Assembly: GCA_001000545.1 (NCBI GenBank) | Contig: LCOC01000005.1 | Coordinates: 10,013-74,012 of the forward strand | Origin: Parcubacteria group bacterium GW2011_GWA2_47_21 | GTDB lineage: Bacteria > Patescibacteriota > Minisyncoccia > Phycocordibacterales > DSPV01 | Direction: 5' to 3' | DNA length: 64,000 nucleotides | In this document: positions 9,685 to 43,710 of the stretch, in pieces | Position numbering within the stretch: position 1 is the first letter of the stretch | Layout of the letters: every line of letters starts with the position of its first letter | The notes under the pieces: model-generated | What the model saw: only the letters and a program-made list of their open reading frames with translations | The model's database searches: none | What the model was told of the DNA's origin: nothing | Program-made: the position numbers and the translations under genes

Positions 9685-10895
9685 TAACCCTTCTAACATT
9701 CATACACAACCTGAAGTCGCTTTGGGATGCGGCGTTTGAAGCTTGGTACGCTATCTTACTCACCGCTGTATTGGCGGCTGGAGTAATTTGGTGGCTTATC
9801 AAGTTCAAGCCATATAAGAAGGTGTGGACATGGATGCTTGCGGCGCTGAACTGGCCGGGGAAAATATTCGGATGGATGCTTGATAAGGTAGATAAAATGC
9901 TAAAGAAGTTGTTTTCTAAAACCACTTCGGCGCCGTTCAGCACTCGTTCAAGAATAATCGCGGCAATTGCCACCGGTATAGCTATCACCGGTATTGGATT
10001 AGCGGTCATACTAGGGACAGCCGGCGCCGGATTACCGTTACAGATGCCGAAAATCAGACAGGATGTACTGTGGGCAATCGGGGTTGTGTTTGTTTTGACA
10101 GTCATTGGCGGGTATTTCTTCTTCAAATGGCTCGTCGGTAAAGCAAAGTACAAACCAATCAGCACAGCGGCCGGCGGGAAAAAACCGTGGGATATCAAAA
10201 AGTTGAAGGATTCTCCGGTCGCCGGCACTTTGTTGGCACTGGCTGGGGTGGCTTTCATTTACTTCTTGACCAGCCAAATCTGGCCGAACTTCTGGGAAAA
10301 ATGGAGTGGTTCAGCTGGGTTTTGGTGGATACCGGTTGGCATTGCGGCGGGCTTCCTCCTTTACAACATTAAGGCGGGGTACGCGGCTACAGTTGCCGGT
10401 ATTGTCATTACCTTAATGTCCTTGGCCGTCATGGCAACCGCTCTATCCTCGTGCGTCGGGGTGTATAAGGAAAAGAAAACGGCGAAAATTGAAGCCGAAA
10501 GAAAGAAAAAGGAGGAAACAAAGCAATTGACGCTAGCAGAAGCGAGAAAAGACCCGACTAAGAGGGATTGGGAGTTGACATGGGAAAAAACGGATAATGT
10601 CGCGGGATACAATCCCCACCAGCGAAGCGGGACGTTCCAAGCAAAAGTAGTTCGGTTTGATGACAATGTCCTGGACATCCACGTCTATTACTCCCACGAA
10701 GGAAGGCGGTGGATATGCCGGATGAAAGGAGAAAAGCTGGGGCCGAAAACCTACGGCGGAACCTGGGAGCAGGACCCGCCGAAGTTACAAGGCCACTGGT
10801 CACTCACAAAAGTGGACGAAGACACCTTTATGGGTTGGCATACCAGTGAACGAAAAGAGAAGTATGTCCCCATGTGGCTCAAAGCCAAAAATTGA
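9681..10895 (+). CDS. Polytopic membrane protein with ~110-aa C-terminal soluble domain; translationally coupled partner of SPFH gene (ATGA overlap)
   Basis: Multiple hydrophobic helices over first ~260 aa, lysine-rich linker, then WELTWEKTDNVAGYNPHQ...DIHVYYSHEGRRWICRMKGEKLGPKTYGGTWEQ domain with no motif I recognise; start overlaps stop of upstream gene. Confidence 0.5.
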   Translation: MITLLTFIHNLKSLWDAAFEAWYAILLTAVLAAGVIWWLIKFKPYKKVWTWMLAALNWPGKIFGWMLDKVDKMLKKLFSKTTSAPFSTRSRIIAAIATGIAITGIGLAVILGTAGAGLPLQMPKIRQDVLWAIGVVFVLTVIGGYFFFKWLVGKAKYKPISTAAGGKKPWDIKKLKDSPVAGTLLALAGVAFIYFLTSQIWPNFWEKWSGSAGFWWIPVGIAAGFLLYNIKAGYAATVAGIVITLMSLAVMATALSSCVGVYKEKKTAKIEAERKKKEETKQLTLAEARKDPTKRDWELTWEKTDNVAGYNPHQRSGTFQAKVVRFDDNVLDIHVYYSHEGRRWICRMKGEKLGPKTYGGTWEQDPPKLQGHWSLTKVDEDTFMGWHTSERKEKYVPMWLKAKN

Positions 10896-11060: not shown

Positions 11061-12551
11061 GTGAAAATCGTGCTTTATGTCGTTGTTTTTATCGGGGGCG
11101 CGGTCGTTATGGTTTTAGAGTTGGTGGCGACCCGTATTATCGCGCCCTATCTCGGCGCGTCATCAATCGTCTGGACGAGTTTAATCGGCGTCATTCTGGC
11201 GGGCCTAAGCGTCGGCTACTTTGTAGGCGGAAAAATCGCCGATAAGAAAGCGACTTACAAAGGACTCGCGCTTATTTTCATAATTGCCGGACTTTTGGTG
11301 ATTCTCATTCTCTACTTCAAGCCCATACTCGGCTTAATCGCAAAAATAGAAAACCTGCAAGCCGGAGCATTGCTCGCCTCTTTAATCCTCTTTACGCCGG
11401 CGACAATCGCTTTGGGCACCATTGCTCCTTACGCCGTCCGTCTCCGGATTGAGTCGCTCCAAAATTCCGGAAATATCGTAGGGAAACTCTACGCTCTTTC
11501 AACGGTCGGAAGCATTGTCGGCACCTTCCTCGGCGGGTTTTTCCTTATCTCGTATTTCGGGAGCACTAAAATTCTAGAATACTTAAGCGCCACTCTGATT
11601 TTATCCGGGGTCTTCGTATATGTGGCAGATACCAGAAAATCAACCGGCTTAATTGCCCTGCCTTTGCTCCCCATAATACTGACAGCAATCATTCCCCCTT
11701 ATGGCTTAATCCTGGAAAAAAACGCCGAACTTCTCACCGATGTGGACAGCGAATACAGCCGGCTTTGGGTCTACGACAGCAGAGATAAAAAAACCAATCG
11801 GCCCGCCCGCTACCTTACGACAAGCGTTGAACTCACCCAATCGGGCATGTATCTCGATAACCCCGAAGAACTCCTCTTGGATTATGCCAAACTGCTTGAC
11901 CTGGCGGAAATGTTCAACCCGAAACTTAACCGCGGGCTTTTAATCGGCGCCGGGGCGTATTCATACCCAAAATACTTTTTGAAAAAGTATCCGGAAGCCA
12001 CCCTGGACGCGGTAGAAATAGATGAAAAAATGACAATGTTAGCCAGACAATATTTCTTTCTGAAAGATAACCCGCGGCTTGCCATATACCACCAAGACGG
12101 GAGGACATTTTTAAGTCGAATTGATAATAAATACGACGCGATTTTCATTGATGCTTTCCTCTCGCCTCTTTCCATTCCCTATCACCTTACAACGGTTGAA
12201 ATTATAAAAATGGCAGAGAGCAAGCTCGCCACAGAGGGAGTGGTGATTGTAAATATCATCGGCGCGCTTCAAGGCCACCGAAGCGATTTTTTCACAGCGG
12301 AATACGGCACTTACAAAACAGTGTTTCCTAATGTATACGTTTTTCGCGCGCAACCGGAGCGAAAACCCGATGAATTGCAAAACATTATTCTCGTGGCCGC
12401 AAAATCAAATAACACGCTCGTTATTGACAATAAGCTTAGGAAAAGCGATTACTTAAAAAATTGGTGGCCAGAAAAAGTAACGACAAATTTGCCCATCTTA
12501 ACCGACGACTTCGCTCCGGTAGAAAAATATGTGACAAAATCAATGTTCTGA
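11061..12551 (+). CDS. Fused polytopic membrane domain + spermidine-synthase-like (polyamine aminopropyltransferase fold) protein
   Basis: N-terminal ~8 predicted TM helices (LVATRIIAPYLGASSIVWTSLIGVILAGLSVGYFVGGKIADK) followed by class I MTase-like/spermidine synthase core (GLLIGAGAYSYPKYF...AVEIDEKM...DAIFIDAF); apparent GTG start. Confidence 0.65.
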   Translation: MKIVLYVVVFIGGAVVMVLELVATRIIAPYLGASSIVWTSLIGVILAGLSVGYFVGGKIADKKATYKGLALIFIIAGLLVILILYFKPILGLIAKIENLQAGALLASLILFTPATIALGTIAPYAVRLRIESLQNSGNIVGKLYALSTVGSIVGTFLGGFFLISYFGSTKILEYLSATLILSGVFVYVADTRKSTGLIALPLLPIILTAIIPPYGLILEKNAELLTDVDSEYSRLWVYDSRDKKTNRPARYLTTSVELTQSGMYLDNPEELLLDYAKLLDLAEMFNPKLNRGLLIGAGAYSYPKYFLKKYPEATLDAVEIDEKMTMLARQYFFLKDNPRLAIYHQDGRTFLSRIDNKYDAIFIDAFLSPLSIPYHLTTVEIIKMAESKLATEGVVIVNIIGALQGHRSDFFTAEYGTYKTVFPNVYVFRAQPERKPDELQNIILVAAKSNNTLVIDNKLRKSDYLKNWWPEKVTTNLPILTDDFAPVEKYVTKSMF

Positions 12552-12620
12552 AAGACGGATACGAGAGATTTTTAATTCCCGAGTGATTTAACGGTTTCCC
12601 CCATCAAATTCATAATCCCG
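12462..12620 (+). repeat. Direct repeat copy A (~158 bp): intact 3' end of the membrane/spermidine-synthase-like gene plus downstream junction
   Basis: TGGTGGCCAGAAAAAGTAACGACAAATTTGCCCATCTTAACCGACGACTTCGCTCCGGTAGAAAAATATGTGACAAAATCAATGTTCTGAAAGACGGATACGAGAGATTTTTAATTCCCGAGTGATTTAACGGTTTCCCCCATCAAATTCATAATCCC; recurs at 13924-13992 and 14782-14939. Confidence 0.9.
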
Positions 12621-12782
12621 AAAGGCTTTGTTGAATAATTCATTTTATGGCTCTAAATAAGAGCATTTTGGGCAGTCAAAAAATGGGGCAAAATAGAGAT
12701 ACGGCTTAAAATAAGGATATTTTGGTTGAATTATTCAACAACGCCATCCCGAAAACCGAAAACATTATCTTGCCGTAAAAAA

Positions 12783-13835
12783 TTACAAAAAATAATTCGC
12801 CTGTGAAAAATCGTGTTGTTCCAAAAATAATTTTTTTGCCAGCGAGGCGTTTTGCAGTTCATAAAACAAAATCATGGCTTTTTTGTATTCCGTCTCGCCA
12901 GCGCTCCGCAAAGAAAGCGGACAGGTATTGGCCGCCAAAAGACAAGCATTCGCCAAGAGCCGCGCCGTCCTTTTATTGCCATCTTCAAACGGCTGAATAT
13001 AAGAAATGACGATAAGAGCAATCAGCGCTTTGTTCCAGGGATCGCCTGCCTCGTTTATTTTTTCAAGCCCAAGCTCCAACGCTTCTTTAATTTGGTATTT
13101 ATTGTCCAAAGGCCGATAATTCGTGCCGGTAATGCCAACCGGTTTGCCCCGTAAACCAAAATTCACATTCAAACCATCAACCAAAAACCGATGAATGTCC
13201 TCCGTATCGCGCAAAGAAACCGTCTCAAATTTTTGCTTATTGCCAAAAATATAATCAAGGGCTTTCTTATGATTAAGAATCATTACCGCCTCTTCCTTCG
13301 GATGCCCCGCGGCCTCTCTGTTTTCCTTAATCAAGGTCTCGGTGTCCAAAAGAGTGTAAGTGTTGCCCTCAATTTTTGAGGACTTCCATGAAAACTCTAT
13401 GGTAATTCTCTCAAATTCCTTTTTTAAAATATCGGGCGGTAAACCAGCGATTCTTTTTTTATAATCGCCGTCTTTCGTTTTTAACGCAGCCAATTCTTTT
13501 TGATTTATCAAACCGCCGAGTTTTTCCACTGCCGTTGTCTTAAACGAAATAGGCGCCGGCGCGCGTTGGTCCGGTTCTTGCGCCAGATAACTCTCAAAAT
13601 CCATCGGTTTCAGAAACGGATGCGGGGCAACCGCCCGGTAAGCCAAAGAGCGGCCTTTGCCAAACTTTTCCAAAACGCCAGCCGCCACCAAAACCGAAAA
13701 TTCTCTGGCGACGGTTTCTCGGGAAAATGGTTCATTTTGTTCGGCAAAAAAAGCCACCAAATCAGAATTTCTAACGGAAGCTCGGGTGGCGGCAAATTCA
13801 AGTATTTTTTGTTGTCTTTTAGTTAATTGTGTCAT
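12783..13835 (-). CDS. Fic/Doc family protein (AMPylator-type toxin-like) with N-terminal winged-helix region
   Basis: Fic motif HxFx(D/E)GNxR present as IQPFEDGNKRTARLLANA; 350 aa. Confidence 0.75.
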   Translation of the reverse strand: MTQLTKRQQKILEFAATRASVRNSDLVAFFAEQNEPFSRETVAREFSVLVAAGVLEKFGKGRSLAYRAVAPHPFLKPMDFESYLAQEPDQRAPAPISFKTTAVEKLGGLINQKELAALKTKDGDYKKRIAGLPPDILKKEFERITIEFSWKSSKIEGNTYTLLDTETLIKENREAAGHPKEEAVMILNHKKALDYIFGNKQKFETVSLRDTEDIHRFLVDGLNVNFGLRGKPVGITGTNYRPLDNKYQIKEALELGLEKINEAGDPWNKALIALIVISYIQPFEDGNKRTARLLANACLLAANTCPLSLRSAGETEYKKAMILFYELQNASLAKKLFLEQHDFSQANYFL

Positions 13836-13923: not shown

Positions 13924-13992
13924 AAAATTTGCCCATCTTAACCGACGACTTCGCTCCGGTAGAAAAATATGTGACAAAATCAATGTTCTGAA
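13924..13992 (+). repeat. Direct repeat copy B (68-bp core of the junction repeat)
   Basis: AAATTTGCCCATCTTAACCGACGACTTCGCTCCGGTAGAAAAATATGTGACAAAATCAATGTTCTGAA identical to the core of copy A. Confidence 0.9.
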
Positions 13993-14047: not shown

Positions 14048-14389
14048 TTATTCTAAATATTCCTTAATACGAAGTGCCGCTGCCGGCACATTATTCTTCA
14101 GTGTGTACCAGATGGTCGGCAAGTCAATGCTGAAATAATCGTGCGCCACAACATCGCGAAGTCCTGCCATCTGTTTCCATGGAATATCAATAGATATTTT
14201 AATTGAATCAGGCACTTTCTTGGCAAGTTCTCCAACAACTTCCAGTTGCATAATAACGGCGCTCTGGCTTTTGCTATCCACAGAAAAATCTTCATACGAC
14301 ATGCCTTCGGTAAAAGCGCGAATTTTAGCAAAGGCGTCAAGCATCAGACGAAGATACGCCGTGTCATCCTTGTTTTTATCTGGTCCCAT
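14048..14389 (-). CDS. HepT-like (DUF86) toxin of HepT/MNT type II TA pair
   Basis: R-x4-H-x-Y motif as LRDVVAHDY; overlaps upstream MNT gene by 14 bp. Confidence 0.7.
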   Translation of the reverse strand: MGPDKNKDDTAYLRLMLDAFAKIRAFTEGMSYEDFSVDSKSQSAVIMQLEVVGELAKKVPDSIKISIDIPWKQMAGLRDVVAHDYFSIDLPTIWYTLKNNVPAAALRIKEYLE

Positions 14390-14675
14390 AAATAATTTTC
14401 AAATCACGATAAATATAATCGCGAAAATACGGCACGATGGCTTTGTCAGAAATCAAATCAACCGGTTTTTGCAATCGTTCTGATAATTCTTCTTTAAACC
14501 CGACAAAATCCCACACGGAAAACGGCCGGTCTCCCAGAGAAACAAGAATATCCACATCACTGTCAGGTCTCGCATCACCGCGAGCGTATGACCCGAAAAT
14601 TCCGGCATAGCGAACTTCATATTTCCCCAAAATTGGTCTTATCGTGTCACCAATGTTTTGTATTGTCCTAGTCAT
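14376..14675 (-). CDS. MNT-type minimal nucleotidyltransferase antitoxin
   Basis: GSxxRG...DxD signature IFGSYARGDARPDSDVDILV. Confidence 0.75.
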   Translation of the reverse strand: MTRTIQNIGDTIRPILGKYEVRYAGIFGSYARGDARPDSDVDILVSLGDRPFSVWDFVGFKEELSERLQKPVDLISDKAIVPYFRDYIYRDLKIIYGTR

Positions 14676-14781
14676 ACAAAGATAATATCACAAGGAATGC
14701 GTGTTTGACAAAAAAAATAATAGCCAAAATACATCACTTGCGCCTAGAGAGCATAGAGAAAGGTTAAACCGCCGCCTTTCC

Positions 14782-14939
14782 TGGTGGCCAGAAAAAGTAA
14801 CGACAAATTTGCCCATCTTAACCGACGACTTCGCTCCGGTAGAAAAATATGCGACAAAATCAATGTTCTGAAAGACGGATACGAGAGATTTTTAATTCCC
14901 GAGTGATTTAACGGTTTCTCCTATCAAGTTCATAATCCC
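14782..14939 (+). repeat. Direct repeat copy C (~158 bp, 4 mismatches vs copy A), abutting first pilin-like gene
   Basis: Same 158-bp sequence as 12462-12620 with GTG->GCG and three substitutions in the distal part; its minus strand encodes the C-terminal tail (IMNLIGETVKSLGN*) of ORF 14892-15083. Confidence 0.9.
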
Positions 14940-15083
14940 AAACGCCGAGAACATTATGAACATTCCGATGATACCGAAGATAATCGCTAATCCGCCCTCT
15001 TTCCTCTTCGCCGCGTCATCACCTTTGGCTACATAACGAAAGACCCCCCAAATAAATACCAGAAAAGCCAGTGACAGAAGCAA
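14892..15083 (-). CDS. VirB2/TrbC-like small membrane protein paralog, N-terminally truncated (possible gene fragment)
   Basis: Two hydrophobic helices around loop VFRYVAKGDDAAKRKEGG; lacks signal peptide and overlaps 3' end of next paralog by 65 nt. Confidence 0.35.
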   Translation of the reverse strand: MLLSLAFLVFIWGVFRYVAKGDDAAKRKEGGLAIIFGIIGMFIMFSAFGIMNLIGETVKSLGN

Positions 15084-15528
15084 AAGGATAATCGGATTTC
15101 AAAAGTGGAATATCGTCGCTCTGCATTGTGCTGGAGCTCCCTGGAGCATCGGCTCTCTGCAAACCAAAAGTATAAAATAAAAGTTGGACAAACCCCCACA
15201 CCCCGACTAAAACCAACAAACCTATCACCCCATACATCATAAATTTACTTCCCTCGCTGCGTTGTTCCTCATTATGACCAGCGAAAACATATCGCATAAC
15301 CCCCCATAGAAATACCAATAAGCCCGCCCCCACTAATAATGAGAAAAGAGGAGCAAGAACCCCCCACCATGTCTCGGAAAGTAACGCCTCAACATAATTG
15401 CCGGGAGGAGCGAAATCAACGCGACCGGCAAAAACAAATCTAGAAAGCACAAAACCGGCAACGGTGGCCGTTACAGCCGTCGTCACACACTTTCTGACAA
15501 AAAATCTATTGGGGTTACTTCGGCTCAT
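15019..15528 (-). CDS. VirB2/TrbC-like (T4SS pilin-like) small membrane protein paralog
   Basis: Signal-peptide-like N-terminus then helix-loop-helix core LVFLWGVMRYVFAGHNEEQRSEGSKFMMYGVIGLLVLVGVWGFVQLL. Confidence 0.5.
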   Translation of the reverse strand: MSRSNPNRFFVRKCVTTAVTATVAGFVLSRFVFAGRVDFAPPGNYVEALLSETWWGVLAPLFSLLVGAGLLVFLWGVMRYVFAGHNEEQRSEGSKFMMYGVIGLLVLVGVWGFVQLLFYTFGLQRADAPGSSSTMQSDDIPLLKSDYPFASVTGFSGIYLGGLSLCSQR

Positions 15529-15664
15529 TTAAATAGACAATTATAAACCGTAACAATATCCTGTAGCTTACATGAAAGAGTTTTGACGAACGAAAAGCAA
15601 TCTTTGTTCTGAAGACATCCTAAATTCCACCCTCAATAAATTTAAAAAAATTCACACCGCCTAT

Positions 15665-16240
15665 CTACGAACACCCGGGCGACTTACCAATCAGCGTGCA
15701 CTCTGCATCCGTAAGTGGCGCCAATCGCGGTCCCGGCAAGGCGCCTCCCAAACCAACGCCCAAAGTATAAGCAAGAATGTTTACTATACCCCACACCCCG
15801 ACCATCACGAATAGAGCGATAACCCCAAAAACCATAAAACTGGCGCCCGCCTTCCGTTTCTCGTCATTGCCGCCGGCGCTTATGTATTTTACGACGCCCC
15901 ATAAAAACACTACCAAACCGATGCTGATGGCCAGGGCTATAAACTGATTTACCCATGTCTTCAGTGTGGCTATCACATCCTCAAAGTAGGTAAAATCTGG
16001 AGTCCCCGCACTGACAACTAGCGGTAGAAAAACTGCACCGATCACTGCGGCGGTACAAATTACCAATGACATAACTTGATTCTGATATTTTTTACCAATT
16101 AACTTCATAAAAACGGGATTTAAATGTTGAAAATTAAAAACGCGCGACTTAAGAAAACTTAATCTAGTCAGCCGCAAGACGACCTTAAGCATAATAGCAC
16201 GCAAACCTATAGCATTGGCAAGTGCGCAGACCGTACTCAC
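15665..16240 (-). CDS. VirB2/TrbC-like small membrane protein paralog (true start probably internal Met, MKLIGKK...)
   Basis: Core LVVFLWGVVKYISAGGNDEKRKAGASFMVFGVIALFVMVGVWGIVNIL preceded by signal peptide MSLVICTAAVIGAVFLPLVVSAG. Confidence 0.5.
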   Translation of the reverse strand: MSTVCALANAIGLRAIMLKVVLRLTRLSFLKSRVFNFQHLNPVFMKLIGKKYQNQVMSLVICTAAVIGAVFLPLVVSAGTPDFTYFEDVIATLKTWVNQFIALAISIGLVVFLWGVVKYISAGGNDEKRKAGASFMVFGVIALFVMVGVWGIVNILAYTLGVGLGGALPGPRLAPLTDAECTLIGKSPGCS

Positions 16241-16335
16241 TACGGAACCCCGCCACCGAACTAACCGGCGGCGGGGTTGTAATTACGACAGAAACCGCCC
16301 AGCAAACAACACTGAAATGTCTGGAAAGAATCCTC

Positions 16336-16743
16336 CTATGGAACAGGAACGATTGGGACTCCTCCACCAGACCGTCCACCTGTAAAATCAGGATTAGGCA
16401 CACTACCGCCAAGACCAACATTTAAGGTGTAAGCAAGCAACCGGACAAGACCCCAAACACCTACTATCACAAACAAAGCAATAACCCCCCAAATCATTGT
16501 TCCGCGAGCCGCTTTCTTTTGCTCCTCGTCAGCGCCGGCAGTAATATACCGAATCACGCCCCACATAAAGACAACCAAAGCAACTCCTATAAGGAGAGGG
16601 ACAAGAGCTACCACCCAGTTAACTAGCGTTGACAGAGCACTATCAACATATCCACTTTGGACAGCGGCGGCCGCCGCAAACGACGGCAGAAGTAATACTG
16701 AGACAATCCCAACCAAACCAATTATTTTTGCTTTAAGAGACAT
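16336..16743 (-). CDS. VirB2/TrbC-like small membrane protein paralog
   Basis: Signal peptide MSLKAKIIGLVGIVSVLLLPSFAAA then core LVVFMWGVIRYITAGADEEQKKAARGTMIWGVIALFVIVGVWGLVRLL; Gly/Pro-rich C-tail. Confidence 0.55.
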   Translation of the reverse strand: MSLKAKIIGLVGIVSVLLLPSFAAAAAVQSGYVDSALSTLVNWVVALVPLLIGVALVVFMWGVIRYITAGADEEQKKAARGTMIWGVIALFVIVGVWGLVRLLAYTLNVGLGGSVPNPDFTGGRSGGGVPIVPVP

Positions 16744-17166
16744 ATAATAAATATATATTTATTATTCGCTTGTAAATTTTTATGTTTTCTTTAATTCTAA
16801 ATAAAGACCGAAGACCCATTAAAACAAAGAAAACTAACTGATTTTAGTGCTTGCGCATTAAAAACCTCGACCTTTAACACGCGGCACACCAAACATCATG
16901 CACGGGATAAGTGTACCCTTAAGCCCGAAACCTCGCAAGGTACCCCTGTGAATTACTTTTTCCTGTCTATGAGACATCGGCTAAAGATTTTAGCGTCTCA
17001 ATAATAAGATTCATTATGCCACAAACCCCCAAACATTATAAACATACCCATTATTTCGTAATTCAAAATCCGTAAATAATGGCTTGACTTTCCTATCCTC
17101 CTTTACATTGAGTTTTGTGTTAAATGCGTCCATATCGCAATATTTACTTTTTTAATACATGATTAA

Positions 17167-17538
17167 TTAACTGGGAATTTCCGGCACCTCCGGATAGCTC
17201 CGACCGGTTTCGCCCGTACTGATGCCGAGCGTGCCGGCAATCAAAGAGACCAATCCCCACACACCCGCCATTACGAATATAAATACCAATCCCCAGAGCA
17301 TAAACTTACCCGCTTCTTTCCGTTGTTCTTCATTGTCAGCGGCGCCAAGATATCTAACAATCTGCCAAATGAAAAAAATTAGAGCAAACCCAATTAGAAC
17401 GGCAACCAGCGGGTTAAGAACTTTGTATAATCCATCAAGAAATTTGGCGTAGTAGGAGAAATCTTGAGCCAATACAATAAGAGGTGCGTAGCCAGAAACC
17501 AGAATAAGCAGGAATTTCAGCTTATAACATTTTGGCAT
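17167..17538 (-). CDS. VirB2/TrbC-like small membrane protein paralog
   Basis: Core FFIWQIVRYLGAADNEEQRKEAGKFMLWGLVFIFVMAGVWGLVSLI after signal peptide. Confidence 0.5.
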   Translation of the reverse strand: MPKCYKLKFLLILVSGYAPLIVLAQDFSYYAKFLDGLYKVLNPLVAVLIGFALIFFIWQIVRYLGAADNEEQRKEAGKFMLWGLVFIFVMAGVWGLVSLIAGTLGISTGETGRSYPEVPEIPS

Positions 17539-17560
17539 AAATTATTAAAAACTTTATCGT

Positions 17561-17986
17561 CTAGAAAGTCGGCGCGGTCGGCTTCGTCGACGACGAAAGA
17601 TTGAGTGTTACACTCAACAGATTTATCAACCCCCAAATTGAAAACATCACAAAAATACCGATGATGCCGAAGATAATAAAGTTCCGCGCCTCCTCTACCT
17701 TCTTACTGTCCGCCCCGGCGGTAATATACTTGAGCACGCCCCAAAGAAAAACCAGAACGGCAAGACCAATAACAAAAGCCACAAGTTGATTTACCAAAAT
17801 CTTCAAATTAACGACGATACTACTTAAAGTCGCGGCAAACACTACGGCCGGTAAAGCTGTTGCAAATAATGTCGGCAAGGCAACACCGGCAAAAAGTTTT
17901 TGGAAGTTTGCGCGCCCTGTTAGAAACCATGATGGTTTGTAGCGTGTCTTTGCCTCTAATGGGGAAATTTTGGCGATGGGGTTCAT
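17561..17986 (-). CDS. VirB2/TrbC-like small membrane protein paralog
   Basis: Core LVFLWGVLKYITAGADSKKVEEARNFIIFGIIGIFVMFSIWGLINLL after signal peptide. Confidence 0.5.
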   Translation of the reverse strand: MNPIAKISPLEAKTRYKPSWFLTGRANFQKLFAGVALPTLFATALPAVVFAATLSSIVVNLKILVNQLVAFVIGLAVLVFLWGVLKYITAGADSKKVEEARNFIIFGIIGIFVMFSIWGLINLLSVTLNLSSSTKPTAPTF

Positions 17987-18007
17987 TACTTGTCTTTTTA
18001 TTTTGCA

Positions 18008-18433
18008 CTAACTTTGCTTTTTCAAAAAAGCATCCACCAGTTTAACATACTCAACATATTGGCCGAAACCGTTCCTAATGTGGGCAACCATCAATTTTTT
18101 ATTAACATCGCCGTATTGATGGACAATGGCGTTTCTCATTCCGACCGATGGCGCGATTTTTAACGCAAAGTCAATGGGCAACATTCCCGCCTCGGCAATG
18201 ATTGAAAAACTACTCTGATAATCGTCAGCGGTTTTCAGTCCACTTTCAGCTATCAAATGCATATTGATATCCACCGCCGCGTCAACCATACCCTGAAAGT
18301 GCCTTTCCAGCGCAGCGAGAACATCTTCGTCGCGAAGAAAATGTTCATCTCCTTTCTGGAACAATCTTTCAATTTTCTGATATCGCGACTGAATCTCATC
18401 CATCTTTCTTTTTATCACTTCCTTGTCAATCAT
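18008..18433 (-). CDS. HepT-like (DUF86) toxin, second HepT/MNT pair, embedded in pilin-like array
   Basis: R-x4-H-x-Y motif as MRNAIVHQY. Confidence 0.7.
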   Translation of the reverse strand: MIDKEVIKRKMDEIQSRYQKIERLFQKGDEHFLRDEDVLAALERHFQGMVDAAVDINMHLIAESGLKTADDYQSSFSIIAEAGMLPIDFALKIAPSVGMRNAIVHQYGDVNKKLMVAHIRNGFGQYVEYVKLVDAFLKKQS

Positions 18434-18449
18434 ATTTTCCTACTCAATT

Positions 18450-18857
18450 TTAATGACTCAAGATAAATTTCTGAATCGCCGTTTCCCTTATTTCAAAAAG
18501 TCGTTTCGCTTCGGCAAAAAGTTTCAAAGCGTAAATTTTGAATGCGGCATATAGAGTCGATTTTTTTTGATAGAACAAAACGGAGTTGATCGCCACGTTT
18601 TTCATCAGAAGCGGCGGCGCTTTTTTCAAATCAACTAAGTCAGTTTTTCCGATTTTCAGAATCTCAGAAAGTTCAAACTCCATTCGGACTTGTTCTTCAA
18701 AACTTTTGGGTTGAGCGGAGATAAAACCAAAATCGTAATCGCTTTTTTTGTGAGTTTTGCCGGAAACCTGCGAACCGAACAACACCAACAAGTCCAAGTC
18801 GTGTTTCTCAGCGAATCCCGACGCTTTTTCTTTTATTATCTCTAAATTTTTCACCAT
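18450..18857 (-). CDS. MNT-type nucleotidyltransferase antitoxin (second pair)
   Basis: LFGSQVSGKTHKKSDYDFG nucleotidyltransferase signature; directly upstream of HepT. Confidence 0.7.
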   Translation of the reverse strand: MVKNLEIIKEKASGFAEKHDLDLLVLFGSQVSGKTHKKSDYDFGFISAQPKSFEEQVRMEFELSEILKIGKTDLVDLKKAPPLLMKNVAINSVLFYQKKSTLYAAFKIYALKLFAEAKRLFEIRETAIQKFILSH

Positions 18858-19010
18858 CTTATAATATCACAAGATATCGATATTTACCAAAAACCGGTGA
18901 TAGCAAAACGGCGGCGAGGATGGCAGCGAAAAGTTTTTGGGATTTTGCGCGCCCTGTTAGGCAAAACGAAGGTTTAGCTTCGTTTTATCTTATGCATACC
19001 CCCCCTCAAT

Positions 19011-19439
19011 CTACGGGCAGGTCTCAAACACAAACTTGCTGCCGGTAACCTGGCCGACTGTTTCGTTTAAGACCGTAGCGATAAGCCACGACCCCAATAA
19101 TACCGCCGTGCCGATAACCGCGCCGACAAAGGCGGTGCGGGCATTTTTTAGCGCCGCGGTGTCCCCTCCCGCCGTTACAAACAGAAAACCGGAGTAAATG
19201 ATAAATACGGCGGCGACAATAATGCCAATTTTAAGGAGGATATTAATGAACCCTTTGAGAAAACAGTAGATTGATGTTGAACAAAGGGGGTTGGGGAATC
19301 CCGTGCCCTCTCCTATGCTCCCGCCTGCCGGCGGCGTGCAGGCCGCGAGGACAAGCGCCGGCGCAATCGCGGTTAATAAAAGAATCAAAACCAGCGCCGG
19401 TATTTTTATTTTTTTGAAAAATTTGTTGAAAAACGCCAT
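19011..19439 (-). CDS. Divergent VirB2/TrbC-like small membrane protein paralog
   Basis: Signal peptide then VFIIYSGFLFVTAGGDTAALKNARTAFVGAVIGTAVLLGSWLIATVL (helix-AGGD loop-helix). Confidence 0.45.
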   Translation of the reverse strand: MAFFNKFFKKIKIPALVLILLLTAIAPALVLAACTPPAGGSIGEGTGFPNPLCSTSIYCFLKGFINILLKIGIIVAAVFIIYSGFLFVTAGGDTAALKNARTAFVGAVIGTAVLLGSWLIATVLNETVGQVTGSKFVFETCP

Positions 19440-19480
19440 AAATTCAATTCGGCCGAACTAAATTGTAACATATCGCCGCC

Positions 19481-19969
19481 CTACGGAAGATTCGAGAGTT
19501 GATAACCTGCCTTGGCGAGAACGGAAAGAATCGTGTCCACGATTAGCCAAGCGGTCAAAACCAGCACGAATCCTATAGCCGCATTTTTGAAAATCTTGTG
19601 GGCTTGCTTGATTTGGCCGACATCCCCGCCGGCGGTCATATATTTAAAACCGGCGAAAGCGAAAAGAAGAACGGCAATTAAAACGCTCATGTAAATCATG
19701 AAGTCCAGGAGATTATTCGCCAGAGCGACGGCGCCGTTCCAGTTACATTCCTCCATTGTGTTGGCATACGCCGGCCCATCATATGGGGCTACTCTGGTTG
19801 GCGGACCGCCTCCGGCCGGGTTTTCAATTTTACCGTCTCCATTCAAATCGTACCCGCACGGCACAAGCGCCTCTCCGGGTTTCCAAGCGAAAACCGCCGT
19901 TGGAACAAAAGTAAGCAAGACCACTACTACTCCGCAAAAGACCAAAAAAATATTTAGAGGGCGAGCCAT
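19481..19969 (-). CDS. Divergent VirB2/TrbC-like small membrane protein paralog
   Basis: LFAFAGFKYMTAGGDVGQIKQAHKIFKNAAIGFVLVLTAWLIVDTIL after signal peptide and Gly/Pro-rich segment. Confidence 0.45.
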   Translation of the reverse strand: MARPLNIFLVFCGVVVVLLTFVPTAVFAWKPGEALVPCGYDLNGDGKIENPAGGGPPTRVAPYDGPAYANTMEECNWNGAVALANNLLDFMIYMSVLIAVLLFAFAGFKYMTAGGDVGQIKQAHKIFKNAAIGFVLVLTAWLIVDTILSVLAKAGYQLSNLP

Positions 19970-19973: not shown

Positions 19974-20249
19974 TTATTTTACTATTAACTGAAGTCCCAA
20001 ACCATTAGTAACTTTTTTCAAAAAGGAAAGAGTCGGGTTAATCCTGCCCGACTCAAAACGAGCAAGCGCCGATTGCGTTACGCCAATCCTGCCCGCCAGC
20101 TGTTTTTGGGTTACCTTTTTATTTATTCGGGCCCGAATCATTGATTCGATAATGCGAAATTCCAAATCAATATCGGCTAATGCTTTTCGCACCCCTGCCC
20201 GTTTCAAAGAGGCCCGCTTAAATTGTTCAAATGTCTTCATTTTAATCAC
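19974..20249 (-). CDS. XRE-family HTH antitoxin (HigA-like)
   Basis: HTH block VTQKQLAGRIGVTQSALARFESGRINPTLSFLKKVTNGLG; immediately downstream of RelE/HigB-like gene. Confidence 0.65.
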   Translation of the reverse strand: MIKMKTFEQFKRASLKRAGVRKALADIDLEFRIIESMIRARINKKVTQKQLAGRIGVTQSALARFESGRINPTLSFLKKVTNGLGLQLIVK

Positions 20250-20275
20250 AAGGTCAATATAACATATACGCTATA

Positions 20276-20614
20276 TCAACGCAACCGCTTTTTCAACTGC
20301 AACACATAGTCAATCTCTTTTTTAGGAATCTTATTCGTCTTTTTAATAAGAGCGTGCAAAACCATGACTTCATCATTACGGTAAACAAAGAAAATTCTTA
20401 TATGCTTCACCCCAATCACTCGTAGCTCAAATATCCCTTGAGCCAGATATTTTGTATGCGGATATGCGGCAGTATTTCCGTATTTTTCAAGCAAACTTAA
20501 TGACCTGTTTATTCTAGCAACTGAACTATCGTCTAATGATAAAAGAAAGTCATAGGTCTTTGAAAAAAGAAATTTAATTTCCCTGCGCGCATTTAAGTAA
20601 TTCTTATCGTCCAA
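20276..20614 (-). CDS. RelE/ParE-superfamily toxin, HigB/Gp49-like
   Basis: Resembles phage Gp49/HigB family (GIFELRVIGVKHIRIFFVYRNDEVMVLHALIKKTNKIPKKEI); toxin-first, HTH-second order typical of higBA. Confidence 0.55.
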   Translation of the reverse strand: MDDKNYLNARREIKFLFSKTYDFLLSLDDSSVARINRSLSLLEKYGNTAAYPHTKYLAQGIFELRVIGVKHIRIFFVYRNDEVMVLHALIKKTNKIPKKEIDYVLQLKKRLR

Positions 20615-21890
20615 TCAGCGCGCTAAGTTCCGTGTTGGCTTGGCCGACCGCCTCGCTCACGCTTAAGCGGCCGGTAACCACCGCTTCAACCATCCGCTGG
20701 AAAATGGCGGACGTGGCGGATGGCGACGGGTCAGGCCAGCCCCTCGCCCAAAGCGCCGATTGGTCAAAAATGGCCCGCGCCGGATTGGTCTGGTCGGTGA
20801 AAAGCAAATCGCGCCTCGCCGACGGCAGGCCGGTCTTCGCGGACCACAGAAGTCCCGCGTTTTTATCAGTCAGCAAATAAATCCGGCTGACGGCGGCGGA
20901 GATGTTTCGGGAGGTTTTAAGAACCGCAACGGCGCGCATTTTACCGAAAGTGATTTTGTTCTTGGAATCCTTAAGCTGGGGAAGGCGGGAGACATCAAAA
21001 TTCAAATTGGGATTTTTCTCCCGAATCTCCTTAAATTCCGAAGCGAAACCGATGTAAATCGGCAAGGCGCCGGCCAGAAAATAATCTTTGGCCGGCGGAA
21101 AACTTTTATTCCACGAATAAACGGTCTTAAGCGGATTGGCAAAATCGGTGTAAAAACTCAAGACGGAAACAGCCGGATAAAGTTGCCCGACTGAATCCGC
21201 CAAAACCGCGTTAAAACCCTCGGGTGTCTTACCGATAATCGGCGTCCCCGCTTGAAGCAGGAGGGCCGAAAGAATCTCTTTGGCGTGGTTCACATTGCCG
21301 TATTCGCCGAAAGCCAAAGCGGGACTTACGACTTCGCCTTTTTCCGTTCGTTTGGCCAAACGGGAAACGACATAAAACATCTCCTCCCAAAATTCCGGCG
21401 GTCTGGGCAAACCGGCGGCCGAGAAAGAATCGCGGTTCCAATAAAGCACCAGCGGGTCAACGGAGAGGGGCAGGGCGGCGACGCCTTGCTCGGTTAGAAA
21501 CATCCCCCCTTCCTCAAGGAAAGTGTCTTTGAAGTCGCGAATCGGGTAGGAGTCGTAGGGAATGACCATCAACCGACTGGCAACGGCGGTAAAAAAGGAC
21601 TCCGGAAAAATGACAATGTCCGGCGCCACGCCATCGGCGATGGCGCTGATTAAATCCCGCTCAAAAGCCGCTTCGCTTTTGGCGACATAGACATTGGCGG
21701 TTTCGGTCTCCTGCGAGAACGACTCAACAAACGCGGAGTAGCTCGCGTCCGTGGGACCCCAGATTGTCAAATTAACGGCGCCCGGACCGCTTTTCCCTCC
21801 TTTATAAAGGGCAAAAGAAGCAACGCCCGCCAAAATGGCTACAAAAAACAGGCCGAGCAAAACCAGTTGGAATTTCGTCAAATTTTTCAT
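20604..21890 (-). CDS. Extracellular solute-binding protein (ABC-type SBP family 1-like), orphan
   Basis: N-terminal signal/anchor, LTIWGP and ALPLSVDPLVLYWNRD blocks typical of sugar-type SBPs; no permease/ATPase adjacent. Confidence 0.45.
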   Translation of the reverse strand: MKNLTKFQLVLLGLFFVAILAGVASFALYKGGKSGPGAVNLTIWGPTDASYSAFVESFSQETETANVYVAKSEAAFERDLISAIADGVAPDIVIFPESFFTAVASRLMVIPYDSYPIRDFKDTFLEEGGMFLTEQGVAALPLSVDPLVLYWNRDSFSAAGLPRPPEFWEEMFYVVSRLAKRTEKGEVVSPALAFGEYGNVNHAKEILSALLLQAGTPIIGKTPEGFNAVLADSVGQLYPAVSVLSFYTDFANPLKTVYSWNKSFPPAKDYFLAGALPIYIGFASEFKEIREKNPNLNFDVSRLPQLKDSKNKITFGKMRAVAVLKTSRNISAAVSRIYLLTDKNAGLLWSAKTGLPSARRDLLFTDQTNPARAIFDQSALWARGWPDPSPSATSAIFQRMVEAVVTGRLSVSEAVGQANTELSALIGR

Positions 21891-22414
21891 AGTTTTCTGG
21901 CGGTGAAGCCGTAGTGGTGAGCGCCGGCCAAGAAATTGGCTACGATTTCAAAACCGGATTTCTTAAAAATTTCCTTGGCCGATGCCGGAGGGACAACCAT
22001 ATTTGCCGTTGGCCCCAAATTGCCGAAGGACTCCGACCAATCAATAACAAACGCCCGGCCCCCTTTCTTCAAAATCCTCTTTACTTCGGACACGAGACCG
22101 GCTTTATTTTCCGCTTGAAACAAAACATTGGAGACAACGGCGGCGTCCAAGGAGTCGTCTTTGAGTTTTGTCCCGCCGATTTTTTCCGCGTCGCCCCAAA
22201 TAATTTCCAGATTATTGAGGTGCCCCTCCGCCGCCAAGCTCTTAAGCCGCGTGAGAAGATTCTCTTGCACATCAACGGCAAAAACCCGCCCGGAATCGCC
22301 GACGGCCTTCGCCAGAACCATTGAATACGCTCCGGAACCGGCGCCGATGTCGGCTACCTGCATGCCGGGTATTATGCCAAGCTGGTCAACGATGGATTGA
22401 GGGTTTAGGAACAT
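21887..22414 (-). CDS. Class I SAM-dependent methyltransferase (small, substrate unknown)
   Basis: Motif I VADIGAGSGAYS, motif post-I AVDVQ; 175 aa. Confidence 0.75.
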   Translation of the reverse strand: MFLNPQSIVDQLGIIPGMQVADIGAGSGAYSMVLAKAVGDSGRVFAVDVQENLLTRLKSLAAEGHLNNLEIIWGDAEKIGGTKLKDDSLDAAVVSNVLFQAENKAGLVSEVKRILKKGGRAFVIDWSESFGNLGPTANMVVPPASAKEIFKKSGFEIVANFLAGAHHYGFTARKL

Positions 22415-22561: not shown

Positions 22562-22600
22562 CCGTGCCTGCCGGCGCGCAACGCGCGCCGGCAGGCACGG
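22562..22600. other. GC-rich perfect 18-bp-arm hairpin between gyrA 3' end and methyltransferase promoter region
   Basis: CCGTGCCTGCCGGCGCGC-aac-GCGCGCCGGCAGGCACGG; member of CCTGCC...GGCAGG palindrome family. Confidence 0.85.
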
Positions 22601-42637: not shown

Positions 42638-42708
42638 TGTGGATAACTATTGATTTTTAATAAGGGCTTGCTACAATACAGATGATCGTAAGATCACGGA
42701 TTTTAGAG

Positions 42709-43485: not shown

Positions 43486-43497
43486 ATGGGTAGGTAA

Positions 43498-43710
43498 TTA
43501 GCTTATTTTCTGGTATCGATAACTATATCGAATATTGTCGTTAAGGAATTGCCCCGGCGATGAGGCCTGAAAAAATTGCCGATATAAATGATCCGGCACA
43601 TTAAAATACTGATATATATCGCCCGAAGTAAACTCCACCTCTAAAGTACCCAACTGCCGATCGTAGCCAATTGAGCGAATATTTGAGGACGATACTGATA
43701 CTCTATGCAT
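43498..43710 (-). CDS. KTSC-domain protein
   Basis: 70 aa; IRSIGYDRQLGTLEVEFTSGDIYQYFNVPDHLYRQFFQASSPGQFLNDNIRYSYRYQKI matches KTSC domain pattern. Confidence 0.6.
   Translation of the reverse strand: MHRVSVSSSNIRSIGYDRQLGTLEVEFTSGDIYQYFNVPDHLYRQFFQASSPGQFLNDNIRYSYRYQKIS

What the first reader, a model, noticed from the sequence alone, without database searches (positions are those of the whole stretch)
14892..19969. Tandem array of eight diversified VirB2/TrbC-like (T4SS-pilin-like) small membrane protein genes
All eight minus-strand ORFs share one architecture. A signal-peptide-like N-terminus is followed by hydrophobic helix 1 ending in [VL]VF[LM]WGV.[KR]Y[IV].AG(G/A)(D/N)EE.[RK]K. A short charged loop leads to hydrophobic helix 2 (F[MI].[FG]GVIAL[FL]V[MI]VGVWG[LI]V.LL). 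The C-terminus is a variable Gly/Pro-rich tail. This matches the helix-loop-helix topology of VirB2/TrbC conjugative pilins. They are not type IV pilins, as there is no G/FTLIE prepilin motif. Diversifying tandem paralogs of this kind suggest surface-exposed, possibly host- or partner-interaction proteins under diversifying pressure. No VirB4/VirB6/VirD4 gene is in the window.
Basis: partly seen in the sequence, partly recalled or inferred. Interest (0 to 1): 0.7.

Follow-up and report, generated by a model that had tools for sequence, protein, structure and literature searches.

The report
VirB2-like pilin gene array in Parcubacteria
This is a chromosomal row of eight small membrane-protein genes from the "T4SS pilin" family that ultrasmall Patescibacteria (CPR) carry, a kind of array already described in the literature, here sitting in a conserved operon far from any secretion-machine genes.

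Summary
The array is real. Eight same-strand ORFs at 14892-19969 all match Pfam PF18895 (T4SS_pilin), five of them above the curated cut-off.

The kind is already known. VirB2-like pilin arrays of 2-11 genes have been reported in 383 Patescibacteria assemblies, and a six-gene array is essential in Southlakia.

- The array is the tail of a tight, conserved operon: gyrA, a small methyltransferase, a solute-binding-like protein, then the pilins. It recurs in about 36 species-level genomes, and none has VirB4 or VirB6 within 10 kb.
- The members are not freely diversifying. The position-1 (pil8) and position-2 (pil7) types are positional orthologues across genomes. Only the "core" type (pil6-pil2) varies in copy number.
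- pil1 is truncated and pil2 has a false tail because this assembly lacks 115 bp that six other assemblies of the same population contain. This is probably an assembly error.
- Toxin-antitoxin cassettes have been inserted into the operon.

Function as pilus subunits is inferred, not shown.

Verdict: a new member of a known kind, of moderate-to-low interest.

The parts
19481..19969 (-). pil8: position-1 pilin-like gene (162 aa). Signal peptide, then a roughly 50-aa ectodomain with a Cys...Cys loop that holds a DxNxDG motif, then the two-helix hairpin.
   Evidence: PF18895 47.1 bits and TrbC E=0.004. All 32 foreign genes of this type are first in their arrays. The 'LVPC...C' motif is conserved.
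19011..19439 (-). pil7: position-2 pilin-like gene (142 aa). Signal peptide, 'NPL' motif, then the hairpin.
   Evidence: PF18895 21.5 bits, E 2.5e-4. 29 of 37 foreign genes of this type are second in their arrays. Identical to P0014 = UX94_C0005G0028 of Parcubacteria group bacterium GW2011_GWA2_47_21.
18008..18857 (-). MNT (18450-18857) and HepT (18008-18433) toxin-antitoxin pair inserted inside the array.
   Evidence: Pfam Polbeta/NTP_transf_2 and HepT-like. Flanked by a 50-nt direct repeat at 17889-17938 and 18926-18975, 82% identical.
17561..17986 (-). pil6: core-type pilin-like gene (141 aa).
   Evidence: PF18895 28.9 bits; own HMM 2e-41.
17167..17538 (-). pil5: core-type pilin-like gene (123 aa).
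   Evidence: PF18895 32 bits. NF045849 E 1.1e-9, below its cut-off.
16976..17060 (-). Frameshifted remnant of the 3' end of a pil1-type gene (…IMGMFIMF… / GIMNLIIETLKSLAD*).
   Evidence: tblastn of pil1 against the 16744-17166 gap gives two collinear pieces at 70-73% identity. The E-values refer only to that small gap.
16336..16743 (-). pil4: core-type pilin-like gene (135 aa).
   Evidence: PF18895 46.4 bits. AlphaFold2 model: signal-peptide helix 3-23 and hairpin H30-68/H73-107, pLDDT 70.8.
15665..16108 (-). pil3: core-type pilin-like gene (147 aa from the ATG at 16108). C-terminal tail with two Cys.
   Evidence: PF18895 22 bits, E 1.7e-4; own HMM 2e-53; start codon checked.
15019..15528 (-). 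pil2: core-type pilin-like gene. It is 152 aa in other assemblies. Here it reads 169 aa because a 115-bp gap at 15100/15102 removes its stop codon.
   Evidence: PF18895 34 bits. Alignment with L001-L003. All six population assemblies carry the extra 115 bp.
14892..15083 (-). pil1: last, short, leaderless pilin-like gene. It is 83 aa in other assemblies and 5'-truncated here by the same gap.
   Evidence: PF18895 26.1 bits.
19974..20614 (-). Gp49 (HigB-like) and HTH toxin-antitoxin pair, inserted between the SBP-like gene and pil8.
   Evidence: Pfam Gp49 and HTH_3 on the identical genes of L001/L002. Absent at this junction in the other 36 loci, where the gap between the SBP gene and the first pilin has a median of 3 bp.
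20604..21890 (-). Membrane-anchored solute-binding-protein-like gene (428 aa). It immediately precedes the pilin array in related genomes.
   Evidence: SBP_bac_1 40.2 bits. Clustered with 37 loci. Gap statistics.
21887..22414 (-). Small class-I SAM methyltransferase (175 aa). It overlaps the SBP start by 4 nt and is the first gene of the conserved MT-SBP-pilin unit.
   Evidence: MT-to-SBP gaps. A strong terminator-like hairpin at 22562-22600 separates it from gyrA.

Best explanation
The locus is a chromosomal array of VirB2-like 'T4SS pilin' (Pfam PF18895) genes in a groundwater Parcubacteria/Paceibacteria-type bacterium of the Patescibacteria. One array protein, pil7, is identical to UX94_C0005G0028 of Parcubacteria group bacterium GW2011_GWA2_47_21.

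Architecture. Each product is a small bitopic hairpin. A Sec-type signal peptide (absent in the last, short member) is followed by a variable exposed N-terminal segment, hydrophobic helix 1, a short charged cytoplasmic loop (R/K-Y-x-x-A-G-G/A-D/N-E-E-x-R/K-K), hydrophobic helix 2 and a variable exposed tail.

Subunit classes. The array is a fixed set of classes rather than a pool of interchangeable variants:
- a position-1 subunit with a disulfide-type Cys loop, which in other genomes carries fn3-like ectodomains of up to about 650 aa;
- a position-2 subunit with an NPL motif;
- a variable number of 'core' subunits, expanded here to five;
- a terminal leaderless subunit.

Operon. The array is co-transcribed with, and probably translationally coupled to, an upstream methyltransferase and a membrane-anchored solute-binding-like protein.

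Inferred mechanism. The subunits insert into the membrane N-out/C-out and co-assemble side by side into one hetero-oligomeric structure. By homology, and by analogy with the essential pilin array of Southlakia, this is most likely a T4SS-dependent surface fibre or channel sheath used in contact with a host cell. The VirB4/VirB6 machinery would be encoded elsewhere in the genome.

Shown versus inferred. Shown: family membership, topology, operon and positional orthology, and the existence of natural fusions. Inferred: pilus formation, dependence on a T4SS, and a role in host interaction.
For: - Family: PF18895 hits all 8 ORFs. All 101 aligned homologues hit PF18895, and 23 also hit TrbC/VirB2 PF04956, best 3.4e-9. 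The top PDB profile hit is the pKM101 TraM pilin, aligned in register, but at E=0.31.
- Topology: hydropathy; AlphaFold2 hairpin after a signal-peptide helix.
- Operon and synteny: 43 of 47 related loci carry same-strand arrays of 2-9 genes. The order S1<, LacB>, GyrA>, MT>, SBP>, pilins> recurs in about 35 loci. It was confirmed by independent gene calls and precomputed Pfam hits on L057-L059. The gap between the SBP gene and the first pilin has a median of 3 bp, and 33 of 36 gaps are <=60 bp.
- Positional orthology.
- Ectodomain fusions at positions 1-3.
- Natural fusions: single polypeptides with 2-8 or more pilin domains exist. Two-domain fusions occupy a core position in the same operon. 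This argues that neighbouring subunits assemble together.
- Literature: six PF18895 pilins, SEML1_0014-0019, lie inside the essential T4SS locus of Southlakia (PMC10633639). 441 arrays of 2-11 pilin genes were found in 383 assemblies, and VirB4 is present in 2,407 assemblies (PMC12102498).
Against: - I found no VirB4, VirB3, VirB6 or VirB8 gene in the 64-kb window, in about 9 kb beyond its right end, or among the recurrent neighbour families and larger ORFs that I scanned within 10 kb of the array in the 47 related loci. Precomputed Pfam hits on L057-L059 show none either. Only L011 has a weak VirD4/TraD-like gene 3 kb away.
- The window proteins themselves do not reach the TrbC/VirB2 gathering score; the best is 17.7 bits against 27.9.
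- Long covalent chains of up to 8 or more hairpins are easier to picture as a polytopic membrane assembly than as a classical extruded pilus.
- No pilus has been seen experimentally for any PF18895 protein, as far as the papers I read state.
Confidence: 0.7

Rival explanations
1. T4SS-independent membrane assembly. The hairpin proteins form a hetero-oligomeric membrane ring or bundle, in the manner of c-ring subunits. They work with the co-operonic solute-binding-like protein (and perhaps the methyltransferase) as an uptake, tethering or envelope module, not as a secretion-system pilus.
For: - The MT-SBP-pilin operon is tight and conserved, and I found no T4SS ATPase or VirB6 within 10 kb in any of about 50 loci.
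- Natural polyproteins with 2-8 or more tandem hairpins would be polytopic membrane proteins.
- According to PMC12102498, virB4 in Paceibacteria usually lies near dnaA/dnaN, not near gyrA.
- Hairpin fold matches include ATP-synthase c-like hairpins in others' annotation of the Southlakia pilins.
Against: - The family is related by sequence to TrbC/VirB2.
- In Saccharibacteria the same family sits inside the T4SS cluster and is essential together with it.
- About 40% of VirB2-like genes in Patescibacteria lie away from virB4 anyway, so distance alone is weak evidence.
- Nothing known links SBP-fold proteins to such hairpins.
Confidence: 0.2
2. One reading: a recently diversifying paralogue family under positive or antigenic-variation-type selection, as proposed for the virB2 paralogues of Bartonella and Anaplasma, giving interchangeable surface variants for different hosts.
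For: - Identity among members is low, 24-49%.
- The exposed N- and C-terminal segments vary.
- Copy number ranges from 4 to 9 among genomes.
- pil3, pil4 and pil2 are each other's best matches, and a pseudogene remnant shows local duplication and loss.
- The authors of PMC12102498 suggest the same idea.
Against: - Positions 1 and 2 are conserved orthologues across species and are more similar to foreign genes than to their own paralogues.
- Divergence is ancient: pS is saturated, and dN/dS is below 1 where it can be computed.
- There is no population-level hypervariability; six assemblies are 99.8-100% identical.
- No silent cassettes or recombination repeats lie between the genes, only coding-sequence similarity.
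- Fusion proteins imply that the subunits are used together rather than as alternatives.
Confidence: 0.08
3. They are type IV pilus (T4P) pilins or pseudopilins assembled by the PilB/PilC machinery that Patescibacteria also carry.
For: - A T2SSE/T2SSF/N_methyl cluster lies 6-9 kb downstream of the array in one related locus, L057.
- A PilB-like ATPase lies near a lone pilin-like gene in L030.
Against: - None of the eight has a G|F(T/S)L(I/L)E prepilin motif.
- None hits N_methyl or other T4P pilin models.
- The two-helix hairpin differs from the single N-terminal helix plus globular head of T4P pilins.
Confidence: 0.02

Closest known systems
Patescibacteria VirB2-like pilin arrays (Pfam PF18895 T4SS_pilin), e.g. 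Southlakia epibionticum SEML1_0014-0019 and the 441 arrays catalogued by Quinonero-Coronel et al. 2025
   Same: Same Pfam family, same size and topology, and the same organisation as a same-strand tandem array of divergent paralogues. Published average identity is 25% with a maximum of 54%; here it is 24-49%. Also chromosomal and in a monoderm CPR bacterium.
   Different: - In Southlakia the array lies inside the T4SS gene cluster near the origin. Here, and in about 36 related Paceibacteria-type genomes, it follows gyrA, a methyltransferase and an SBP-like gene, with no T4SS gene found within 10 kb.
[quoted passage not shown]
- The positional subunit classes, the SBP linkage and the multi-domain fusions are not mentioned in the papers I read.
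TrbC/VirB2 conjugative pilins (PF04956): Agrobacterium VirB2, RP4 TrbC, pKM101 TraM
   Same: A leader peptide followed by two hydrophobic helices separated by a short charged loop. Family members bridge the two Pfam models. TraM is the best, though non-significant, PDB profile hit, aligned in register.
   Different: The window proteins score below the PF04956 threshold. No adjacent virB3/virB4/virB6 genes were found, and no cyclase or acetylase partner was identified. The organism has no outer membrane. There are eight paralogues rather than one pilin gene.
virB2 paralogue arrays of Bartonella and Anaplasma
   Same: Tandemly amplified, sequence-divergent VirB2-type genes in a host-dependent bacterium.
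   Different: Those arrays are interpreted as antigenic or host-range variants. Here two positions are conserved orthologues across species, and fusion proteins imply co-assembly.
Mycoplasma ICE Mbov_0395 family pilin-like conjugal transfer protein (NCBIfam NF045849)
   Same: An 80-aa two-helix protein of a monoderm. It is the best NCBIfam hit for all eight ORFs (E 1.1e-9 to 0.13) and resembles the leaderless pil1.
   Different: All scores are below the family cut-off of 40 bits. That family is encoded on a mobile conjugative element, whereas this array sits among housekeeping genes.

Membership tests
Pfam PF18895 T4SS_pilin | Profile match at or above the gathering score (26.6 bits) | tested here: met
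   pil8 47.1, pil4 46.4, pil2 34.0, pil5 32.0 and pil6 28.9 bits are above it. pil1 26.1, pil3 22.0 and pil7 21.5 bits are just below, with E<=2.5e-4. All are linked by a common HMM at E<=1e-26, and all 101 aligned relatives match.
Pfam PF18895 T4SS_pilin / VirB2-like | Small protein with a cleavable leader, two hydrophobic helices and a short charged connecting loop | tested here: met
   Hydropathy segments. AlphaFold2 model: H3-23, H30-68, H73-107. Seven of eight have a leader with an A-x-A-like end, read from the sequence. pil1 is leaderless. No dedicated signal-peptide predictor was available.
TrbC/VirB2 (PF04956) | Profile match at or above the gathering score (27.9 bits) | tested here: not met
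   Best window scores are 17.7 bits (pil8, E 0.004) and 13.6 bits (pil4). Relatives in the same alignment do reach it: 23 of 101 at E<=0.01, best 3.4e-9. This is superfamily-level homology, not membership of PF04956 itself.
VirB2-type T4SS pilin (functional class) | Encoded with, or served by, VirB4/VirB3/VirB6-type assembly machinery | tested here: not met
   None found in the window, in 9 kb beyond its right end, or in the neighbour genes scanned within 10 kb in 47+3 related loci. The rest of the genome could not be examined. The literature reports VirB4 in 2,407 of about 3,030 Patescibacteria assemblies.
VirB2-type T4SS pilin (functional class) | Polymerises into an extracellular pilus, with pilin processing or cyclisation | not testable with these tools
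   Needs microscopy or biochemistry. The fold searches were non-discriminating.
Antigenic-variation-type virB2 paralogue arrays | Lineage-specific, recently diversified, interchangeable copies | tested here: not met
   Positional orthology of pil8 (32/32 first) and pil7 (29/37 second). Saturated pS. A near-clonal population. The core copies pil2-pil4 do show local duplication.
Type IV pilus pilins (T4P) | Class III signal peptide, G|F(T/S)L(I/L)E, processed by a prepilin peptidase | tested here: not met
   A regular-expression search was negative in all eight. There are no N_methyl hits.

The most novel reading that the evidence does not exclude
The gyrA-linked methyltransferase-SBP-pilin operon is a distinct, conserved cell-surface module of Paceibacteria-type Patescibacteria. 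It would consist of a fixed-order set of VirB2-derived hairpin subunits: a Cys-loop or fn3-bearing 'tip/adhesin' subunit, an NPL subunit, several core subunits and a leaderless terminator. These would co-assemble (sometimes as covalently fused poly-hairpins) together with an orphan solute-binding-like protein. The assembly would work either without the T4SS or with a remotely encoded one. That would make it a new use of the conjugative-pilin fold rather than a conventional T4SS pilus.
Probability: 0.2. Interest if true: 0.65.

Novelty: new member of a known kind. Interest (0 to 1): 0.35.

Why it matters
Patescibacteria make up a large share of bacterial diversity and appear to live attached to host cells. 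In the one genetically tractable species, the VirB2-like pilin array and its T4SS are essential for that lifestyle. Monoderm T4SSs were otherwise thought to lack pilins.

This window adds one more array and no new principle. Comparison with about 50 related loci gives three testable points:
- In the largest class (Parcubacteria/Paceibacteria) the array is wired to an SBP-like protein and a methyltransferase rather than to the T4SS genes.
- The subunits fall into fixed positional classes.
- Natural multi-hairpin fusions exist.

All three bear on whether these proteins really form a pilus. The family is very large, with about 103,000 clusters at 50% identity.

Tried and rejected
- **PDB sequence-profile search.** Only a non-significant top hit to the pKM101 TraM pilin, E 0.31.
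Synonymous sites are saturated, so the test is uninformative.
- **Promoter and terminator scans.** Counts are no higher than in shuffled sequence. Only the gyrA terminator hairpin and the promoter-like sites upstream of the toxin-antitoxin genes stand out.
- **Further copies in the window.** None beyond the eight plus the remnant found later.
- **Lipoprotein reading of pil7 (LAAC lipobox).** The motif is present in only 3 of 29 orthologues, so I dropped it.
- **Search for T4SS genes.** I scanned the recurrent neighbour families and the larger unassigned ORFs of the related loci. I found only one weak VirD4/TraD-like gene, in L011.
- **rpoB look-up to extend the contig leftwards.** It failed because that exact product is not on record.
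- **First genome scan with the 8-sequence alignment.** A 4-sequence alignment worked.
- **NCBI taxonomy look-up of the source strain name.** It failed.
- **Source genome in the GTDB representative set.** The window's own genome was not among the hits, so I could not inspect the rest of the genome for VirB4.

Full report
**1. Observation**

The region 14892-19969 holds eight minus-strand ORFs, here called pil8 to pil1 in the direction of transcription. An HMM built from them was searched with all filters off against every stop-to-stop segment of the window. It recovers exactly these eight at E 1e-27 to 2e-53, and the next hit has E 0.66. The array is therefore real, is confined to these coordinates, and is far beyond chance. 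Pairwise identity is 24-49%, mean 35%.

Hydropathy shows an N-terminal hydrophobic leader plus two long hydrophobic segments in seven of the eight. None has a type IV prepilin motif.

- pil3 starts at the ATG at 16108 (147 aa).
- pil1 has no leader.
- The quoted motif and the Gly/Pro tail fit pil2-pil6 well but fit pil7 and pil8 only loosely.

**2. A defect in this assembly**

Six independently assembled contigs of the same groundwater population (Rifle aquifer samples; L001-L006) are 99.8-100% identical to the window over the array. All of them contain 115 bp that the window lacks at 15100/15102. With that segment, pil2 is 152 aa with its own stop, and pil1 is an intact 83-aa leaderless protein. 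In the window pil2 runs on out of frame and pil1 is cut at its 5' end.

A second gap of about 107 bp at 58810/58814, again absent from three other assemblies, frameshifts murJ (487 aa against 557 aa). Two gaps of similar, roughly read-sized length, one of them in a gene expected to be essential, point to local assembly errors rather than biology. This is an inference and needs read mapping.

**3. Family**

- All eight ORFs hit Pfam PF18895 'T4SS_pilin', five above the gathering score. pil8 and pil4 give weak hits to TrbC/VirB2 PF04956.
- The best NCBIfam model for all eight is the Mycoplasma ICE 'pilin-like conjugal transfer protein' NF045849, below its cut-off.
- A profile search of 5.8 billion proteins returned only PF18895 proteins from Parcubacteria, Nomurabacteria, Giovannonibacteria, Paceibacterota and unclassified Patescibacteria. 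NCBI names several of them 'pilin'.
- Of 101 aligned members, all hit PF18895 and 23 also hit PF04956 at E<=0.01, best 3.4e-9. This ties the family to canonical conjugative pilins at superfamily level.
- The profile's best PDB match is the pKM101 TraM pilin, aligned in register from the leader's A-x-A site into helix 1, but at E=0.31.
- The family is huge: 102,845 representatives of 50%-identity clusters at E<=1e-3.
- pil7 is identical to UX94_C0005G0028 of 'Parcubacteria group bacterium GW2011_GWA2_47_21'.

**4. Context**

The window is ordinary chromosome, with rpoB/rpoC, gyrA, ftsA/ftsZ, lepA and murJ. I found no VirB4, VirB6 or VirD4 gene in it, nor in about 9 kb beyond the right end.

A scan of one genome per species (GTDB) found 47 loci. 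Of these, 43 carry same-strand arrays of 2-9 pilin-like genes, most often 5. Clustering the neighbouring genes shows a strikingly conserved order in about 35 loci, identical to the window: S1 protein (reverse strand), Lactamase_B_3, GyrA, a 175-aa SAM methyltransferase, a 430-aa membrane-anchored SBP_bac_1/8-like protein, the pilin array, and then a convergent gene pair that in some loci includes an SPFH/Band-7 protein.

Independent gene calls with precomputed Pfam hits on three further contigs show the same order. The gap between the SBP gene and the first pilin has a median of 3 bp, 33 of 36 gaps are <=60 bp, and many overlap by 4 nt. The gaps between the methyltransferase and the SBP gene are equally small. 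A strong terminator-like hairpin at 22562-22600 follows gyrA. The pilins are therefore the distal part of an MT-SBP-pilin operon.

None of the recurrent neighbour families or the larger unassigned ORFs that I scanned is a T4SS ATPase or VirB6. The only hint is a weak TraD/VirD4-like gene 3 kb downstream in L011. The literature finds such genes scattered through nearly all Patescibacteria genomes.

**5. The array is structured, not a swarm of variants**

- pil8 and pil7 score 66-87 bits against genes at the first and second positions of foreign arrays, but at most 44 bits against any paralogue in their own array.
- Across arrays of four or more genes, all 32 pil8-type genes are first and 29 of 37 pil7-type genes are second.
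- Position-1 proteins share an 'LVPC...C' Cys loop just before helix 1. In pil8 the loop carries a 36-residue insert with a DxNxDG motif.
- Position-2 proteins share an 'NPL' motif after a low-complexity linker.
- In other genomes the proteins at positions 1-3 carry N-terminal ectodomains of 100-650 aa, some fn3-like, ahead of the C-terminal hairpin. This fits an exposed N-terminus.
- The last gene is usually short, 80-116 aa, with room only for the hairpin.
- pil6-pil2 belong to one 'core' type whose copy number varies. pil2, pil3 and pil4 are each other's closest relatives.
- A frameshifted remnant of a pil1-type 3' end lies between pil5 and pil4. This suggests a past segmental duplication of a 'core...terminal' block.
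- Synonymous sites between paralogues are saturated (pS 0.63-0.86). dN/dS is 0.2-0.45 where defined.

None of this supports ongoing diversifying selection.

**6. Natural fusions**

The highest-scoring relatives in the 1.84-billion-protein library are single polypeptides with 2-8 or more pilin domains spaced about 102 aa apart. They have one leader and no internal leaders, stops or X residues. Examples are P0121 (six units in 552 aa) and P0136 (1,147 aa). Two-domain versions, P0010 and P0004, occupy a core position inside the same MT-SBP-pilin operon.

By gene-fusion ('Rosetta stone') logic, adjacent subunits work side by side in one assembly. The hairpin's N-out/C-out topology allows such chaining in a membrane, and in principle in a pilus lattice, where both termini face outward. 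That last point rests on my knowledge of F- and T-pilus structures and was not tested here.

**7. What is known**

- Wang et al. 2023 (PMC10633639) found six PF18895 pilin genes, SEML1_0014-0019, inside the T4SS locus of Southlakia epibionticum. All are essential for epibiotic growth.
- Quinonero-Coronel et al. 2025 (PMC12102498) searched 3,035 genomes. They found VirB2-like genes in 1,948 VirB4-positive assemblies, near virB4 in 1,135 of them. They found 441 arrays of 2-11 genes in 383 assemblies, with average identity 25%. They suggested host-range versatility by analogy with Bartonella and Anaplasma.
- A 2025 review calls these the only monoderm T4SSs with potential pili (PMC12857230).

The finding is therefore a further member of a described kind. 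I did not find the gyrA-MT-SBP linkage, the positional classes or the poly-hairpin fusions in these papers. I have not read their supplementary tables in full.

**8. Mechanism and rivals**

Best-supported mechanism:
1. Sec-dependent insertion as N-out/C-out hairpins with the basic loop inside.
2. Co-assembly of one position-1 (adhesin-like) subunit, one position-2 subunit, several core subunits and a leaderless subunit.
3. Most likely, extraction and polymerisation by a T4SS encoded elsewhere, to contact a host cell.

Shown: the family, topology, operon, subunit classes and fusions. Inferred: the pilus, T4SS dependence and the host-contact role.

The main rival, at about 0.2, is a T4SS-independent membrane assembly that works with the SBP-like protein. 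The consistent absence of T4SS genes nearby and the long fusions favour it. The antigenic-variation reading (about 0.08) and the T4P reading (about 0.02) are disfavoured.

**9. Mobile insertions**

The operon has been invaded by toxin-antitoxin cassettes:
- A Gp49/HTH pair sits exactly between the SBP gene and pil8 (19974-20614).
- An MNT/HepT pair sits between pil7 and pil6, bracketed by a 50-nt direct repeat.
- Downstream of pil1 lie a second MNT/HepT pair and a Fic gene. Each is bounded by copies of a 70-160-bp segment that contains the 3' end of pil1. One population variant, L001, lacks Fic.

**Verdict**

The family assignment is supported, and the 'diversifying pressure' inference is not. 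This is a new member of a known kind, with interest of about 0.35.

Noticed in passing
window 15100-15102 and 58810-58814: The window lacks 115 bp and about 107 bp that six and three other assemblies of the same population contain. The first gap truncates pil1 and extends pil2. The second frameshifts murJ (487 aa against 557 aa). These are probably local assembly errors in the source genome.
   Followed up: partly
window 12462-12623, 13925-13992, 14782-14942: A 70-160-bp segment holding the last 14 codons of pil1 plus its downstream junction is repeated three times. The copies bracket the Fic gene (12783-13835) and an MNT/HepT pair (14048-14675). Contig L001 of the same population lacks Fic. 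The pattern looks like cassette gain and loss by recombination at duplicated junctions.
   Followed up: partly
window 14682-14714 and 18861-18893: A 33-nt repeat, 76% identical, with -35/-10-like hexamers lies just upstream of both MNT genes. It is likely a shared promoter or operator of the two MNT/HepT modules. A third MNT/HepT pair maps to about 56949-57840 (+) according to the gene calls on L007.
   Followed up: no
P0121, P0126, P0129, P0136, P0146; P0010 in L057 10001-10678; P0004 in L058 10001-10669: Single polypeptides carry 2 to 8 or more tandem T4SS_pilin hairpin domains, with one leader and about 102 aa per unit. Two-domain versions sit at a core position of the same MT-SBP-pilin operon. 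I did not see this mentioned in the papers I read.
   Followed up: partly
L027 6965-9208, L032 5895-7613, L051 6608-8173, L026 7184-8446 and others: Position-1 to position-3 array members in other genomes are 250-790 aa. They carry fn3-like or Pur_ac_phosph_N-like ectodomains N-terminal to the pilin hairpin, which looks like adhesins anchored by a pilin domain.
   Followed up: partly
window 19820-19870 (pil8 residues about 38-76): The Cys-Cys loop of pil8 contains DLNGDGKIE, an EF-hand or dockerin-like DxNxDGxIxxE calcium-loop pattern (Pfam EF-hand_5, E 0.31 only). A few position-1 orthologues have similar D-x-N/D-x-D-G stretches.
   Followed up: no
L011 3720-5261 and 9364-10576: This locus shares the MFS/spermidine-synthase neighbour (52% identity to window 11061-12551) and ranks second in identity (42%) to the query in the genome scan. 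A TraD/VirD4-like ATPase (TIGR03743 1.2e-13, PF12696) lies 3 kb downstream of its pilin genes, and an MltB-like protein lies further on. It is the only T4SS-like neighbour seen in 47 loci.
   Followed up: partly
window 8458-10895 (+), and the convergent gene pair downstream of arrays in 26 loci: An SPFH/Band-7 protein (408 aa) and an unannotated 404-aa protein converge on the array. In some related loci the second gene of the downstream convergent pair is homologous to the Band-7 gene (BLAST 1e-19 to L018, 8e-9 to L056), so the synteny extends downstream too.
   Followed up: partly
window 39644-45800 (-): A low-GC (about 0.40-0.43), strongly skewed island encodes a ResIII/SNF2-type helicase-nuclease (997 aa), a NYN-domain protein (258 aa) and an N6/N4 DNA methylase (695 aa). 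It looks like a type III-like restriction-modification or defence island.
   Followed up: no
L057 16192-19010: A type IV pilus cluster (T2SSE ATPase, T2SSF platform, N_methyl prepilin) lies 6-9 kb downstream of the pilin-like array in a Nomurabacteria genome. This is probably coincidental proximity of two surface-fibre loci.
   Followed up: no
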